In this document: positions 59,370 to 62,885 of the stretch, one piece after another
How positions within the stretch are numbered: position 1 is the first letter of the stretch
Layout of the letters: each line of letters starts with the position of its first letter
NCBI GenBank assembly: GCA_964406505.1
Contig: CAYORX010000004.1
Coordinates: 17,056 to 81,055 of the forward strand
Source of the DNA: an uncultured Eubacteriales bacterium
Lineage (GTDB): Bacteria; Bacillota; Sulfobacillia; Fermentithermobacillales; Fermentithermobacillaceae
Length of the DNA stretch: 64,000 nt
Reading direction: 5' to 3'
Translations under genes and position numbers: made by a program
Notes under the pieces: model-generated
Databases searched by the model: none
Told to the model about the DNA's origin: nothing
The model's input: only the letters and a program-made list of their open reading frames with translations

Positions 59370-60545
59370 ATGCAATTTCAGGATATCGTGTTTGGTGTTC
59401 CAAAAGAAATTATGCAAGGCGAACGTCGAGTAGCTGCCATTCCGGAAACAACAAAAAAACTGGTCTCCGGGGGAGCCAAAGTACTAGTAGAAAAAGGGGC
59501 GGGCGTTGGATCGTTTTTTTCAGATGAAGAATACACAAAATCCGGCGCGGTTGTAGTCGAAGATGTTGAAGAATTGTATAACAAGTCGAACTTTGTTCTC
59601 AAGGTAAAGGAACCTCTTTTCAACCAAGTTAAAAACAAACATGAAATAGATATGATGCATGACGGCCAAGTACTAATCACTTTTTTGCACCCCGCAGCAC
59701 CTGCAAATCATGGGATGGTAAAAAAACTATCTGCAAAAGGCGTGATAGCGCTCACTTTGGACGGTATTCCTAGGATATCTAGGGCTCAAACCATGGATGC
59801 TTTAACTTCTATGAGCACCGTAGCAGGCTATAAAGCCGTGCTTATGGCTGCTAACCGCTTACCTAAGTTTATGCCTATGATCGCCTCGGCAGTCGGAATG
59901 ATAAGGCCATCAATCGTAACTGTTCTTGGCACTGGAGTCGCCGGGCTTCAAGCAGTAGCAACTGCAAAAAGATTAGGTGCGGAAGTCCACGCGGTAGACA
60001 TCAGGCCCGATGCAGCCGAACATGCCAAAAGTCTGGGGTCTAGGGTAGTTGAAACAGGGGTGCCTGTAGAAATTGCTGTGGGTGAAGGCGGTTATGCCAA
60101 GCATTTGCCTAAGGAATGGCTTATTAAAGAAAGGGAAGCTATTAAAGACATCGTAATTAAATCTGATATTGTAATTGCAACTGCTCTTGTTCCCGGCAGA
60201 CTTGCCCCAGTGTTGGTAACTGAAGAAATGGTAAAAGCAATGAAACCTGGTTCAGCAATTGTAGATGTTTCTATCGACCAAGGCGGCAATTGCGAACTCA
60301 CTTCAGGCGGGGAAATCATCGAAAAGTACGGCGTGAGCATTGACGGAACCAAAAATATCCCCGGTAAGGTCCCTGCTAGCTCCACAACGATGTTTGCCAA
60401 AAATGTTTACAACTTTGCGTCTCACTTCGTTAAAGATGGCAAAATCATTATTGACCTTAAAGATGAAATAACTGCCTCTGCATTGGTCTGCAAAGACGGA
60501 AAAATAGTTCATGAAGGTACTAAAGAAGCTATGGGACTTAAGTAA
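59370..60545 (+). CDS. pntAA: NAD(P) transhydrogenase alpha subunit, part 1 (dI, NAD(H)-binding)
   Basis: AlaDH/PNT N- and C-domains. RBS AAGGAGG. 391 aa. Confidence 0.9.
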   Translation: MQFQDIVFGVPKEIMQGERRVAAIPETTKKLVSGGAKVLVEKGAGVGSFFSDEEYTKSGAVVVEDVEELYNKSNFVLKVKEPLFNQVKNKHEIDMMHDGQVLITFLHPAAPANHGMVKKLSAKGVIALTLDGIPRISRAQTMDALTSMSTVAGYKAVLMAANRLPKFMPMIASAVGMIRPSIVTVLGTGVAGLQAVATAKRLGAEVHAVDIRPDAAEHAKSLGSRVVETGVPVEIAVGEGGYAKHLPKEWLIKEREAIKDIVIKSDIVIATALVPGRLAPVLVTEEMVKAMKPGSAIVDVSIDQGGNCELTSGGEIIEKYGVSIDGTKNIPGKVPASSTTMFAKNVYNFASHFVKDGKIIIDLKDEITASALVCKDGKIVHEGTKEAMGLK

Positions 60546-60566: not shown

Positions 60567-60839
60567 ATGAACGCTCTTTTTTTGGTAGCAATTTTTATCG
60601 TTGCAACGTGGCTAGGATATAAAGTAATAAGCGAAGTACCCTCGCTATTACATACGCCGCTCATGTCAGGAGCTAATGCAATTTCAGGCGTAACGATTTT
60701 GGGTTCTCTTGTTTCTACAGCATTGTCTGTAGGTTTGGGAAGCAAAGCATTTGGTTTTATAGCCATAGTCCTAGCATGTATTAACCTTGTCGGTGGATTT
60801 GTAGTCACAGATCGTATGTTAAAGATGTTTAAGAATTAG
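60567..60839 (+). CDS. pntAB: NAD(P) transhydrogenase alpha subunit, part 2 (membrane)
   Basis: 90-aa ORF with three TM helices, immediately after pntAA. RBS AAGGAGGGG. Confidence 0.8.
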   Translation: MNALFLVAIFIVATWLGYKVISEVPSLLHTPLMSGANAISGVTILGSLVSTALSVGLGSKAFGFIAIVLACINLVGGFVVTDRMLKMFKN

Positions 60840-60855: not shown

Positions 60856-62808
60856 ATGGATCAAGTATACATCGTAATTTCAATCGTTCTCGCAGGGTTG
60901 GTCCTCCTTGGCATCAAGTGGATGAGTTCTCCTCGAACCGCTGTAGGCGGAAACAGACTAAGTGCTCTTAGCATGTTGATAGCCATTTTACTGGTTCTAT
61001 GGAAAAACCACATCTTAAGTGTGCCACAACTTTGGATAGCTATCGTAATAGGAGGCGGACTAGGCTATTTAATGGCAGTAAGAGCTACCATGATACAAAT
61101 GCCACAAATGGTAGCTTTGCTTAACGGACTGGGAGGCGGTGCTTCCGCATTGGTAGCTATCGCCGAAATCATGGACAAATACGATCATATGTTGACGTTT
61201 AATCAATTAAGCAGCCAGCTTGCTTTGATGGTTGGCGGCTTGACCCTCAGTGGCAGTTTAATAGCAGCAGCTAAACTTGATAGACGAATGACTCAAATGC
61301 CTGTCGTTTTGCCTAACCACAATTTGATCTCGAACTTCAGCATCACTGCAATGTTGATCTTAGGTGGTTGCACATTGGTATTTGATGCCGCAGTGATTCC
61401 ACTATCCGGTTTAGTTTTATTCATATCTCTAGGTTACGGCGTGTTGTTCGCCATTAGGGTCGGAGGCGCGGACATGCCTATCACAATATCTTTACTTAAT
61501 TCGTTTTCAGGCTTGGCGGGTTCGATCGTAGGGTTTACAATTTCGGAACCGTTATTGGTAGCTGTAGGGGCCATCGTTGGAGCATCTGGTCTTATTTTGA
61601 CCCAAATAATGTGCAAAGCGATGAACCGATCTTTAGCTAATGTTCTGAGCGGTGCTATAGCTCAACCATCGAAATCAAAAGTTAAAGACCCCAAAACTGA
61701 GGCCTTGCCTTCTGTTAAACACATAGAAAAAGAAGTTAGTGCCGAAGCTCGTGCAGCACAACTATTGAAAACTGCAAAACGAGTGATAATAGTACCGGGC
61801 TACGGCATGGCCATAGCTCAAGCGCAGGGACATGTGAAGAACTTAGCCGATGCATTAGAGTCTAAAGGCGCTAAAGTTAAGTTCGCCATACACCCGGTTG
61901 CCGGTAGAATGCCCGGACATATGAATGTGCTTTTAGCTGAAGTAGATGTGCCATATGACGATCTTTGTGAAATGGATGACATTAATCCTGAATTCCCTGA
62001 TACAGATCTCGCCATCATCGTAGGGGCTTGCGACGTGGTCAACCCTGCTGCTAACACGGCAGAAGGTACCCCGATTTACGGCATGCCGATACTTGATGTT
62101 GACAAAGCGAAAAACGTGATCGTATGCAACTTAGACACCAAACCGGGTTATTCGGGAGTAGACAACCCACTTTATGAAATGGAGCACGTTAAACTCCTTT
62201 TGGGCGATGCAAAACAATCGCTTGATAAACTTCTAAGCGAAGTACTAAAACCTGCGGATACAGATGAACTTCAGGTTTTAGAAGAAGCACCTGCTGAAGA
62301 AGAATCTTTAGGACAGATTTTAAGCGACGCATCTAAAGTGATAATAGTACCGGGCTACGGCATGGCCATAGCTCAAGCGCAGGGACATGTGAAGAACTTA
62401 GCCGATGCATTAGAGTCTAAAGGCGCTAAAGTTAAGTTCGCCATACACCCGGTTGCCGGTAGAATGCCCGGACATATGAATGTGCTTTTAGCTGAAGTAG
62501 ATGTGCCATATGACGATCTTTGTGAAATGGATGACATTAATCCTGAATTCCCTGATACAGATCTCGCCATCATCGTAGGGGCTTGCGACGTGGTCAACCC
62601 TGCTGCTAACACGGCAGAAGGTACCCCGATTTACGGCATGCCGATACTTGATGTTGACAAAGCGAAAAACGTGATCGTATGCAACTTAGACACCAAACCG
62701 GGTTATTCGGGAGTAGACAACCCACTTTATGAAATGGAGCACGTTAAACTCCTTTTGGGCGATGCAAAACAATCGCTTGATAAACTTCTAAGCGAAGTGC
62801 GATCGTAG
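60856..62808 (+). CDS. pntB: NAD(P) transhydrogenase beta subunit with a tandemly duplicated NADP(H)-binding domain III
   Basis: 650 aa. The dII membrane domain (~aa 1-300) is followed by a complete dIII (VIIVPGYGMAIAQAQG...LLSEV), a 31-aa acidic linker, and a second dIII identical to the first. Confidence 0.85.
   Translation: MDQVYIVISIVLAGLVLLGIKWMSSPRTAVGGNRLSALSMLIAILLVLWKNHILSVPQLWIAIVIGGGLGYLMAVRATMIQMPQMVALLNGLGGGASALVAIAEIMDKYDHMLTFNQLSSQLALMVGGLTLSGSLIAAAKLDRRMTQMPVVLPNHNLISNFSITAMLILGGCTLVFDAAVIPLSGLVLFISLGYGVLFAIRVGGADMPITISLLNSFSGLAGSIVGFTISEPLLVAVGAIVGASGLILTQIMCKAMNRSLANVLSGAIAQPSKSKVKDPKTEALPSVKHIEKEVSAEARAAQLLKTAKRVIIVPGYGMAIAQAQGHVKNLADALESKGAKVKFAIHPVAGRMPGHMNVLLAEVDVPYDDLCEMDDINPEFPDTDLAIIVGACDVVNPAANTAEGTPIYGMPILDVDKAKNVIVCNLDTKPGYSGVDNPLYEMEHVKLLLGDAKQSLDKLLSEVLKPADTDELQVLEEAPAEEESLGQILSDASKVIIVPGYGMAIAQAQGHVKNLADALESKGAKVKFAIHPVAGRMPGHMNVLLAEVDVPYDDLCEMDDINPEFPDTDLAIIVGACDVVNPAANTAEGTPIYGMPILDVDKAKNVIVCNLDTKPGYSGVDNPLYEMEHVKLLLGDAKQSLDKLLSEVRS
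61782..62244 (+). repeat. Direct repeat copy A (463 bp) encoding PntB domain III
   Basis: 100% identical by inspection to 62337..62799, offset 555 bp. The identical 79-aa antisense track ORFs 61818..62057 and 62373..62612 corroborate this. Confidence 0.9.
62337..62799 (+). repeat. Direct repeat copy B (463 bp) encoding the second PntB domain III
   Basis: Identical to 61782..62244 and separated from it by a unique 92-bp in-frame linker. Confidence 0.9.
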
Positions 62809-62822
62809 TTTTTTAACTGCAA

Positions 62823-62866
62823 AAGACCTTTAGGTACTGATAATAATCTGCCAACCTAAAGGTCTT
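62823..62866. terminator. Bidirectional intrinsic terminator between pntB and the convergent glycosyltransferase gene
   Basis: AGACCTTTAGGT-(18 nt)-ACCTAAAGGTCT, a 12-bp stem flanked by T-rich sequence on both strands. Confidence 0.55.
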
Positions 62867-62885
62867 AGTTATTATGAATATAATT

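What the first reader, a model, noticed from the sequence alone, without database searches (positions are those of the whole stretch)
61782..62799. PntB with an in-frame, 100%-identical tandem duplication of its NADP(H)-binding domain III (dII–dIII–linker–dIII)
The pntB ORF is 650 aa, where ~460 aa is normal. A 463-bp segment encoding the whole dIII is repeated 555 bp downstream with no mismatches visible. The two copies are joined by a unique 92-bp in-frame segment encoding an acidic, flexible-looking linker (LKPADTDELQVLEEAPAEEESLGQILSDAS). Known proton-translocating transhydrogenases carry one dIII per beta subunit and function as dimers, so a beta chain with two dIII domains is a new architecture that would change dI:dIII stoichiometry. 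Perfect nucleotide identity suggests a very recent duplication, ongoing gene conversion, or an assembly artefact. The unique in-frame linker argues against simple repeat collapse or mis-join.
Basis: seen in the sequence. Interest (0 to 1): 0.7.

Follow-up and report, generated by a model that had tools for sequence, protein, structure and literature searches.

The report
Transhydrogenase beta subunit with tandem NADP(H) domains
The repeat is real and encodes a membrane transhydrogenase subunit carrying two copies of its NADP(H)-binding domain; this is not a one-off, because hundreds of anaerobic bacteria have versions with two to four copies, a layout the open-access papers I could search do not describe.

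Summary
An exact 462-bp direct repeat (61782-62243 and 62337-62798, period 555) flanks a 93-bp unique spacer. It lies in frame in a 650-aa pntB that follows pntAA and pntAB.

- The gene is not a unique new architecture. All 119 other best homologues carry 3 or 4 tandem dIII domains. They come from Bacillota, Desulfovibrio, Porphyromonas, Bacteroidales and Anaerolineae, including cultured isolates.
- In relatives the copies have diverged at synonymous sites (dS 0.26 to above 2) with dN/dS of 0.02-0.19. The layout is therefore old, real and under selection.
- The duplication is not recent. The window's linker carries the same ESLGxxL..A.K signature as the inter-dIII linkers of its closest relatives.
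- The perfect identity of the cores points to gene conversion, to assembler homogenisation, or to both.
- Copy number here is at least 2 and may be 3. In one related species the 3-copy gene also appears as two different 2-copy forms.

All multi-dIII proteins fall in a subfamily whose NADP(H)-site KRS motif is replaced by N-x-D. I found no published description of tandem dIII. The favoured mechanism, several mobile NADP(H)-carrier domains on flexible tethers, is inferred and untested.

The parts
59370..60545 (+). pntAA: soluble NAD(H)-binding domain I (alpha1), 391 aa
   Evidence: Pfam AlaDh_PNT_N (1.7e-43) and AlaDh_PNT_C (2.1e-61). Same gene order in the syntenic relative L001.
60567..60839 (+). 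pntAB: alpha2, small membrane subunit of domain II, 90 aa
   Evidence: Pfam PNTB_4TM 1.5e-31. Aligns to T. thermophilus alpha2 chains 9hjx_A and 4o93_A at about 5e-19.
60856..62808 (+). pntB ORF, 650 aa: dII, linker, dIII-1, linker, dIII-2
   Evidence: ORF list. Pfam PNTB 823.8 bits in 2 stretches. Foldseek matches to E. coli and T. thermophilus PntB.
60856..61659 (+). Domain II membrane part of PntB (aa 1-268)
   Evidence: Helices H3-H265 in the AF2 model. Foldseek TM-score 0.91, rmsd 2.2 A to T. thermophilus dII 4o9t_B. phmmer 1.4e-37 to 4o9p_D.
61660..61737 (+). Disordered dII to dIII-1 tether (aa 269-294)
   Evidence: pLDDT below 50 for residues 269-294. At 26 aa it is longer than the 14-19 aa quoted for known enzymes (PMC5742237).
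61782..62243 (+). Exact repeat copy 1, the core of dIII-1
   Evidence: 462-nt exact run at period 555. phmmer 5.9e-59 to T. thermophilus dIII 4j16_C.
62244..62336 (+). Unique 93-bp spacer encoding LKPADTDELQVLEEAPAEEESLGQILSDASK: a flexible acidic linker plus the diverged N-terminal helix of dIII-2
   Evidence: No exact counterpart elsewhere. Residues 467-480 have pLDDT below 50, followed by helix 485-491. The ESLGxxL..A.K signature is shared with the inter-dIII linkers of P0019-P0021.
62337..62798 (+). Exact repeat copy 2, the core of dIII-2
   Evidence: 100% identical to 61782-62243.
62128..62136 (+). N425-L426-D427 in loop E of dIII-1, at the position of the E. coli KRS motif (K424-R425-S426)
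   Evidence: Alignments to E. coli, R. rubrum and T. thermophilus dIII. N425 and D427 are invariant in alignment A1. The KRS motif is described as part of the NADP(H) site in PMC9529548.
62683..62691 (+). The same N-L-D motif in dIII-2 (N610-L611-D612)
62823..62866 (.). 13-bp inverted repeat (AAGACCTTTAGGT / ACCTAAAGGTCTT, 18-nt loop) between convergent pntB and a glycosyltransferase gene; a possible terminator
   Evidence: Read directly from the sequence. The consensus terminator scan did not report it, so support is weak.

Best explanation
The locus is a pntAA-pntAB-pntB operon for a three-subunit membrane transhydrogenase. Its beta subunit belongs to a widespread and apparently undescribed subfamily found in anaerobes. 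In this subfamily 2-4 complete NADP(H)-binding dIII domains follow the membrane domain in tandem, joined by linkers of about 10-35 residues rich in Ala, Glu, Ser and Pro.

Shown:
- The tandem layout is ancient and each copy is kept by purifying selection.
- The window's inter-domain linker is orthologous to relatives' linkers.
- Copies are partly homogenised within genomes.

Inferred:
- The 462-bp perfect identity comes from a recent gene-conversion or unequal-recombination event between neighbouring copies. Short-read assembly may have sharpened it.
- The real copy number is at least 2.

Inferred mechanism (untested): in known enzymes dIII is a mobile carrier. It swivels between dII, where NADP(H) exchange is coupled to the proton channel, and the dI dimer, where hydride transfer occurs. 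Tandem dIII domains on flexible tethers would act as several carriers per protomer, as tandem lipoyl or ACP domains do. One copy could exchange nucleotide at dII while another reacts with, and holds at the membrane, the soluble (dI)2 dimer, which is not covalently attached in this three-subunit form.
For: Anatomy.

Spread of the layout:
- 78 three-copy and 41 four-copy proteins among the 120 best hits.
- The 50%-identity representative library shows at most 4 matched stretches per protein and 22 multi-copy entries among the 150 listed.
- 25 of the 80 loci kept from the species-representative genomes have 2-4 copies.

The layout is real and selected:
- Nucleotide identity between copies ranges from 71% to 99.8%, with dS 0.26 to above 2 and dN/dS 0.02-0.19. 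This includes the isolates P. cangingivalis and D. formicoaceticum.
- The identical 1003-aa protein is carried by three P. cangingivalis contigs; the two shown come from different assemblies.

The duplication is old and the copies evolve in concert:
- Copies group by position in P0007, P0008 and P0009 but by genome in P0017, P0018 and P0024.
- The syntenic relative L001 has a 397-nt exact tract inside copies 1 and 2 that are otherwise divergent, and a third copy at 85%.
- The linker signature ESLGxxL..A.K is shared with P0019-P0021.

Linkers: enriched in A, E, S and P and predicted disordered.

Carrier role of dIII, the steric limit of one tightly bound dIII per (dI)2, and the free dI dimer in three-subunit enzymes come from the literature: PMC5742237 and PMC13635403. 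All 23 multi-dIII loci that could be scored have a separate alpha2 gene.
Against: - No reads are available, so neither the copy number nor the perfect identity in this genome can be verified.
- No independent assembly of the same species exists in the collections searched; the best relative is 76-78% identical, depending on the tool.
- The tandem-carrier mechanism rests on analogy only. Nothing here shows that distal copies can dock on dII, and coupling may need the first copy's direct tether to the membrane domain.
- Single-dIII relatives in the same N-x-D subfamily (L026-L040) evidently work without extra copies.
- Exact runs above 180 nt were seen only in loci other than the two isolate species (P. 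cangingivalis, D. formicoaceticum) and the MAG L002, whose isolate name contains 'LR' (possibly long-read; inferred from the name only). In those three the longest run is 86 nt or less. Part of the homogenisation may therefore be an assembly effect, but three comparison points are few and assembly methods were not checked.
Confidence: 0.72

Rival explanations
1. Assembly collapse. The real gene has three (or four) dIII copies, like all its closest relatives. A short-read assembler passed once through a repeat loop, dropped one unit and its linker, and merged small differences between copies into one consensus.
For: - The window protein is the only 2-copy entry among the 120 best hits, and its four nearest relatives (74-76% identical) all have 3 copies.
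- In the species-level cluster of P0020 the 865-aa 3-copy form coexists with two different 671/672-aa forms. One lacks a unit between copies 1 and 2 (P0134, P0136) and the other between copies 2 and 3 (P0132).
- Many relatives' contigs end inside the repeats: L020-L025 (L041 ends right after dII, before any dIII) and L086, L087, L090-L092.
- A 462-nt exact repeat is longer than typical short-read k-mers (general knowledge).
Against: - Two-copy genes with clearly diverged copies exist, so two is a legitimate state: L003 86.7%, L013 85%, L017 81%, L019 87%.
- The contig continues cleanly into unique sequence on both sides, and no other long repeat occurs in the window.
- The collapsed-looking forms in the P0020 cluster could instead be real deletion variants produced by the same recombination.
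Confidence: 0.35
2. A very recent de novo tandem duplication of dIII in this lineage.
For: The 100% nucleotide identity over 462 nt.
Against: - A fresh tandem duplication gives a junction made of sequence that also flanks the unit. Here the 93-nt spacer has no exact counterpart. The sequence upstream of copy 1 is only about 45% identical to it.
- The spacer carries the linker signature of relatives that diverged long ago.
- Multi-dIII is ancestral to the whole clade.
Confidence: 0.04
3. Artefactual duplication. The genome has one dIII, and the second copy plus linker is a mis-assembly or chimera with another strain.
For: Perfect identity of the copies; origin in a draft contig of about 108 kb (NCBI source), apparently a MAG like all its relatives, though the record's title was not available.
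Against: - The linker is in frame. It begins exactly at the end of the domain and rebuilds a complete, diverged N-terminal helix for the second dIII.
- Every closely related pntB with a complete ORF has at least 2 copies, except L088.
Confidence: 0.03
4. The extra dIII copies are real but are not catalytic carriers. They would serve as tightly binding NADP(H) buffers or sensors, or only as docking sites that hold soluble dI dimers at the membrane.
For: - Isolated dIII binds NADP(H) very tightly and needs dII to release it (established biochemistry, from my own knowledge).
- (dI)2 binds one dIII with Kd below 60 nM (PMC5742237).
- Some lineages show position-specific sequence differences between the first, inner and last copies, which suggests specialisation.
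Against: - Every copy keeps the whole catalytic and nucleotide-site motif set (GYG, HPVAGRMPGH, the D393 equivalent, NPAA, loop E), as shown by the invariant columns.
- dN/dS is as low for distal copies as for the first. That fits full function better than a scaffold role.
Confidence: 0.2

Closest known systems
Three-subunit proton-translocating transhydrogenase of Thermus thermophilus and Rhodospirillum rubrum (PntAA, PntAB, PntB; PDB 4O9U, 4J16, 1PNO)
   Same: - The same three genes in the same order.
- dII matches T. thermophilus dII (TM-score 0.91).
- Each dIII is 51-57% identical to the solved dIII domains listed, with all core motifs present.
- dI is a separate soluble protein.
   Different: - Two (elsewhere 3-4) dIII domains per beta chain instead of one.
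- A longer disordered dII-dIII tether: 26 aa against 14-19.
- The loop E KRS motif is replaced by N-L-D.
E. coli PntAB (two-subunit form; PDB 9L76)
   Same: Homologous dII and dIII (Foldseek E 8.7e-27). The GGADMP and MNRS motifs at the membrane edge are conserved.
   Different: - In E. coli alpha is fused (dI plus 4 TM helices).
- E. coli has one dIII.
- E. coli has beta-His91 where the window has Asn.
- E. coli has the KRS motif.
Tandem swinging-arm carrier domains: three lipoyl domains of E. coli pyruvate dehydrogenase E2, tandem ACPs of PUFA synthases (analogy only; from my own knowledge)
   Same: Near-identical carrier domains repeated in tandem and joined by flexible linkers rich in Ala, Pro and charged residues. 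The carrier moves between separate active sites. Copy number varies between species.
   Different: The fold and chemistry are unrelated. dIII carries a non-covalently bound nucleotide. No experiment links dIII copy number to throughput.
Database entries annotated only as 'NAD(P)(+) transhydrogenase (Re/Si-specific) subunit beta' of 820-1070 aa (for example P. cangingivalis 1003 aa, D. formicoaceticum 832 aa, Desulfovibrio intestinalis 1013 aa)
   Same: The same subfamily: tandem dIII, N-x-D loop E and a separate alpha2 gene. Identity to the window protein is 53-76%.
   Different: They have 3 or 4 copies, usually diverged (83-94% nt identity in isolates). The window gene shows 2 identical copies.

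Membership tests
PntB, beta subunit of proton-translocating NAD(P) transhydrogenase (Pfam PF02233) | Full-length match to the PNTB profile above the curated cut-off | tested here: met
   823.8 bits against a cut-off of 31.7. Residues 8-461 cover profile positions 4-455 of 456, and a second partial stretch covers dIII-2.
PntB, beta subunit of proton-translocating NAD(P) transhydrogenase (Pfam PF02233) | Encoded next to the dI (AlaDh_PNT) and alpha-subunit membrane-helix genes | tested here: met
   pntAA 59370-60545 and pntAB 60567-60839 lie immediately upstream on the same strand.
PntB, beta subunit of proton-translocating NAD(P) transhydrogenase (Pfam PF02233) | dII and dIII folds like the solved structures | tested here: met
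   AF2 model with mean pLDDT 79.8. Foldseek: dII TM-score 0.91 to 4o9t_B, dIII TM-score 0.81-0.85 to 4j16_C and 1pno.
PntB, beta subunit of proton-translocating NAD(P) transhydrogenase (Pfam PF02233) | Core dIII motifs (PGYG, HPVAGRMPGH, the Asp equivalent to E. coli D392, NPAA) | tested here: met
   Present in both copies and invariant across 40 homologues.
PntB, beta subunit of proton-translocating NAD(P) transhydrogenase (Pfam PF02233) | KRS motif (E. coli K424-R425-S426) of the NADP(H) site in loop E | tested here: not met
   N-L-D in both copies. In the genome-contig loci (L001-L081), N-x-D is found in every multi-dIII protein and in a set of single-dIII proteins from anaerobes, whereas the classical homologues have KR[SG]. 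The motif is defined in PMC9529548.
PntB, beta subunit of proton-translocating NAD(P) transhydrogenase (Pfam PF02233) | One dIII per beta chain (the 'universally conserved three-domain architecture') | tested here: not met
   Two dIII domains here and 3-4 in relatives. The review statement is in PMC5742237.
PntB, beta subunit of proton-translocating NAD(P) transhydrogenase (Pfam PF02233) | Channel histidine (E. coli beta-H91 or T. thermophilus alpha2-H42) | tested here: inconclusive
   Asn at the beta-H91 position and Ser at the alpha2-H42 position. The same pair occurs in 77 classical KRS-type homologues in the sample, so it does not set this protein apart.
PntB, beta subunit of proton-translocating NAD(P) transhydrogenase (Pfam PF02233) | [quoted passage not shown] | not testable with these tools
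   Needs enzyme assays.
Tandem-dIII PntB subfamily of anaerobes (seen in databases; no published description found) | Two or more complete dIII domains in one ORF with a period of 175-199 aa, joined by low-complexity linkers rich in A, E, S and P | tested here: met
   The period here is 185 aa and the linker has 9 acidic residues of 31.
Tandem-dIII PntB subfamily of anaerobes (seen in databases; no published description found) | Inter-dIII linker orthologous to that of the nearest relatives | tested here: met
   EEESLGQILSDASK compared with GESLGEALTQAKK, EESLGGILGTAKK and KESLGEALAKAKK in P0019-P0021.
Tandem-dIII PntB subfamily of anaerobes (seen in databases; no published description found) | N-x-D loop E and a separate alpha2 gene | tested here: met
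   23 of the 23 multi-dIII loci that could be scored.
Tandem-dIII PntB subfamily of anaerobes (seen in databases; no published description found) | Copy number and sequence of the copies confirmed by reads that span the repeat | not testable with these tools
   No reads are available, and there is no second assembly of this species.

The most novel reading that the evidence does not exclude
Tandem-dIII, N-x-D PntB enzymes would be an unrecognised mechanistic class of membrane transhydrogenase in anaerobes. Several tethered NADP(H)-carrier domains per protomer take turns at dII and at free dI dimers. Loss of the KRS contact changes nucleotide affinity, or even specificity. Together these would tune the enzyme for fast turnover, possibly in reverse (NADPH to NAD+, building proton-motive force). 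The strict two-dIII anti-phase model would then not be general.
Probability: 0.3. Interest if true: 0.8.

Novelty: new variant of a known kind. Interest (0 to 1): 0.58.

Why it matters
Current models of transhydrogenase coupling rest on exactly two dIII domains per dimer working in anti-phase: one faces dI and the other faces dII. A natural family with 4-8 dIII domains per dimer, each under strong purifying selection, is a ready-made test of that model. It asks whether distal copies dock on dII, whether rate or dI retention scales with copy number, and why the layout is confined to anaerobes with a separate dI.

The linked replacement of the KRS motif raises a second question about the nucleotide affinity and specificity of the whole anaerobe subfamily.

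There is also a practical point. These genes are annotated as ordinary PntB, and short-read metagenome assemblies routinely break or collapse them, so copy numbers in MAGs should not be trusted.

Tried and rejected
- Exact look-up of the 650-aa protein on contigs: not on record.
- Exact search for the 62-nt linker DNA in JGI metagenomes: no hit.
- Relatives of the full protein in species-representative genomes, and of the dII part in metagenomes: nothing closer than 76%. Independent confirmation of copy number was therefore impossible.
- Rfam scan of the window: no RNA family.
- Whole-window repeat scan for other signs of mis-assembly: none.
- Seven literature searches for tandem, multiple or duplicated dIII or domain III. 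They found only papers on the two dIII copies of the dimer. Subscription-only papers were not searchable.
- A simple fresh tandem duplication was considered and rejected on junction logic.
- The idea that absence of the channel histidine marks this subfamily was considered and dropped, because classical homologues show the same Asn/Ser pair.
- A separate alpha2 gene as a discriminator was also dropped. The single-dIII KRS homologues in the sample have a separate alpha2 gene too.
- The Pfam TPP_enzyme_M hit and the benzoylformate decarboxylase fold hits are the kind of weak matches a shared Rossmann-like fold would give (my reading, not tested). They were ignored.
Full report
**Observation.** The sequence contains an exact direct repeat of 462 nt, at 61782-62243 and 62337-62798, with a period of 555 nt.
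- Both copies start at the third position of a codon, so the frame is kept. The ORF 60856-62808 encodes 650 aa.
- No other repeat of 40 nt or more occurs in the 64-kb window.
- Pfam PNTB matches the protein at 823.8 bits in two stretches.
- The two genes upstream are pntAA (dI; AlaDh_PNT_N and AlaDh_PNT_C) and pntAB (the PNTB_4TM membrane subunit). This is a three-subunit transhydrogenase operon of the Thermus and Rhodospirillum type.

**The junctions are not those of a fresh duplication.** A new tandem duplication yields a junction built from sequence that also flanks the unit.
- Here the spacer has no exact counterpart. The 60 nt upstream of the two copies are 48% identical, and the 60 nt downstream are 22% identical.
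- At the protein level the C-terminal part of the spacer (…EEESLGQILSDASK) is a diverged version of the helix that precedes the first dIII (…AEARAAQLLKTAKR).
- It also carries the ESLGxxL..A.K signature of the copy 1-to-2 and copy 2-to-3 linkers of the nearest relatives: GESLGEALTQAKK, EESLGGILGTAKK, KESLGEALAKAKK.
- The second domain and its linker are therefore inherited. They are neither newly made nor a chimeric join.

**The architecture is common in databases.**
- A search of 5.8 billion protein clusters returned 8000 PntB homologues. Of the best 120, 78 have three dIII domains, 41 have four, and the window protein (P0016) is the only one with two.
- Sources include Bacillota MAGs, Desulfovibrio, Porphyromonas, Bacteroidales, Anaerolineaceae and Dehalobacterium formicoaceticum.
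- In a library of 1.84 billion cluster representatives, no listed protein has more than four matched stretches. Of the 150 listed, 22 have more than one.
- Among the 80 loci kept from the scan of species-representative genomes, 25 carry 2-4 copies.
- The identical 1003-aa, four-copy protein is carried by three Porphyromonas cangingivalis contigs; the two shown come from different assemblies.

**The copies are old and individually selected.**
- Within genes of relatives, the nucleotide identity of dIII cores ranges from 71% to 99.8%.
- Where copies have diverged, dS is 0.26 to above 2 and dN/dS is 0.02-0.19. This includes P. cangingivalis (83-94% nt) and D. formicoaceticum (87-94%).
- All catalytic and nucleotide-site motifs are invariant in every copy.
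- In a neighbour-joining tree, copies group by position across P0007, P0008 and P0009. They group by genome in P0017, P0018 and P0024. The third copies of P0019, P0020 and P0021 group together.
- This is the pattern of an old duplication followed by partial concerted evolution and occasional gain or loss of units.

**Source of the perfect identity.**
- The syntenic relative L001 has S9 peptidase, MurJ, pntAA, pntAB and pntB in the same order. It has three copies. Copies 1 and 2 share a 397-nt exact central tract with differences only near the edges, and copy 3 is 85% identical.
- Similar long exact tracts occur in L011 (458 nt; 456 nt over the in-frame core), L012 (432), L015 (415) and L097 (417).
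- Identity at synonymous sites cannot come from selection on the protein. Homogenisation by gene conversion or unequal crossing-over is the natural cause.
- Tracts above 180 nt were seen only in loci other than the two isolate species and L002. L002 is a MAG whose isolate name contains 'LR', which may mean long-read; that is inferred from the name only. In those three the longest exact run is 86 nt or less. Assembly methods of the other loci were not checked.
- Assemblers merge small differences inside repeats (general knowledge). '100%' may therefore overstate a true value in the high nineties.

**Copy number is not secure.**
- In the species-level cluster of P0020, the 865-aa three-copy form is found on more than 20 contigs.
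- Two different two-copy forms also occur. P0134 and P0136 lack the unit between copies 1 and 2, and P0132 lacks the unit between copies 2 and 3.
- Many relatives' contigs stop inside the repeats.
- A repeat-spacer-repeat structure is exactly what a single pass through a collapsed repeat loop would give. The window gene could truly have three copies.
- Genuine two-copy genes with diverged copies do exist (L003, L013, L017, L019), so two is also plausible.
- No second assembly of this species was found; the best relative is 76-78% identical, depending on the tool.

**Structure.**
- AlphaFold2 with a 40-sequence alignment gives mean pLDDT 79.8.
- The model has a helical dII, a disordered tether (residues 269-294), dIII-1, a disordered acidic segment (467-480), a short helix (485-491) and dIII-2.
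- Foldseek matches E. coli, T. thermophilus and ovine transhydrogenase. dII has a TM-score of 0.91 to 4o9t_B, and dIII scores 0.81-0.85 to 4j16_C and 1pno.
- Across the 120 homologues, the inter-dIII linkers (N-terminal helix excluded) are 10-34 residues long and enriched in Ala (23%), Glu (13%), Ser (10%) and Pro (8.5%).

**A linked peculiarity.**
- At the position of the E. coli KRS motif (K424-R425-S426) both copies have N-L-D. [quoted passage not shown]
- In the genome-contig loci (L001-L081), all multi-dIII proteins and a set of single-dIII proteins from anaerobes have N-[LYFK]-D. Shewanella, Gemmatimonadota and cyanobacterial homologues have KR[SG].
- Over the 120 best hits, the motif counts per dIII copy are NYD 240, NFD 92 and NLD 61.
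- The tandem forms are therefore nested in a distinct 'N-x-D' subfamily. As far as I recall, the KRS residues contact the 2'-phosphate. If so, nucleotide affinity or specificity may differ, but this was not tested.

**Mechanism (inferred).**
- In known enzymes dIII is a mobile carrier that swivels between dII and the dI dimer.
- (dI)2 binds one dIII tightly (Kd below 60 nM), and a second face-up dIII would clash with the first (PMC5742237).
- In three-subunit enzymes the dI dimer has no covalent link to the rest of the complex (PMC13635403).
- Tandem, flexibly tethered dIII domains would give each protomer several carriers. One could exchange nucleotide at dII while another reacts with, and retains, a free dI dimer. 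This resembles tandem lipoyl or ACP domains (analogy from my own knowledge).
- A metatranscriptomic study of an anaerobic-digester Limnochordia proposes that Pnt runs from NADPH to NAD+ to build a proton gradient (PMC11844248). This gives a possible physiological setting. I did not check whether that organism's PntB has tandem dIII.

**Novelty and verdict.**
- Seven full-text searches found no description of tandem dIII. Reviews describe the three-domain architecture as universal.
- The database entries are annotated as ordinary PntB.
- The window gene is one member, with uncertain copy number, of a widespread variant of a known enzyme that appears to be undescribed.

Noticed in passing
window 62128-62136 and 62683-62691; loci L001-L053: The loop E KRS motif of the NADP(H) site is N-L-D in both dIII copies. 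All multi-dIII PntBs and a set of single-dIII PntBs from anaerobes share N-x-D, while homologues from Shewanella, Gemmatimonadota and cyanobacteria keep KR[SG]. This suggests altered nucleotide affinity or specificity across a whole subfamily.
   Followed up: partly
proteins P0020, P0124, P0125 versus P0132, P0134, P0136 (cluster of L001): Within one species-level cluster, the 3-dIII gene (865 aa) coexists with two different 2-dIII forms (671/672 aa). Each lacks exactly one repeat unit, at a different junction. This is either assembly collapse or real copy-number polymorphism.
   Followed up: partly
L020-L025, L041, L086, L087, L090-L092: Contigs of many relatives end inside or just before the dIII repeats, so this gene family routinely breaks short-read assemblies. 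L088, a close relative (72% identity in dII), shows a complete single-dIII ORF. That may be a full collapse or a real loss.
   Followed up: no
proteins P0001, P0007, P0008, P0010, P0014, P0027; loci L002, L004, L006: Some lineages have position-specific dIII variants. The last copy has CNLD(K/R/C)(N/S)PGY where inner copies have CNLDT(K/N)PGY, and in P0007, P0008, P0010 and P0014 (not P0001 or P0027) the first copy has PYELM where the others have PYD(K/Q)L. This hints at sub-functionalisation by position.
   Followed up: no
window 61123-61125 (PntB N90) and pntAB 60567-60839 (motif PLMSGANAISG): The window has Asn at the position of E. coli beta-His91 and Ser at the position of T. thermophilus alpha2-His42. 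The canonical channel histidine is therefore absent at both aligned sites. The same pair occurs in 77 classical KRS-type homologues sampled, so the feature is general and not specific to this finding.
   Followed up: partly
window 62809-62885 versus L001 7599-11602: The syntenic relative L001 has two ABC-transporter genes (598 and 595 aa) between pntB and the convergent glycosyltransferase gene. The window has only a 77-nt spacer with a 13-bp inverted repeat (62823-62866).
   Followed up: no
L012, L013, L016, L018: In these Lachnospiraceae, Clostridia, Bacteroides and Bacteroidaceae loci the open frame holding pntB is about 90-190 aa longer than the dIII count predicts. No separate alpha2 ORF was detected. 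The alpha2 and beta genes may be fused.
   Followed up: no
window 1-64000: No Rfam family reached its gathering score anywhere in the window. GC content is 41.6%. Most large ORFs upstream of the pnt operon are on the minus strand.
   Followed up: no
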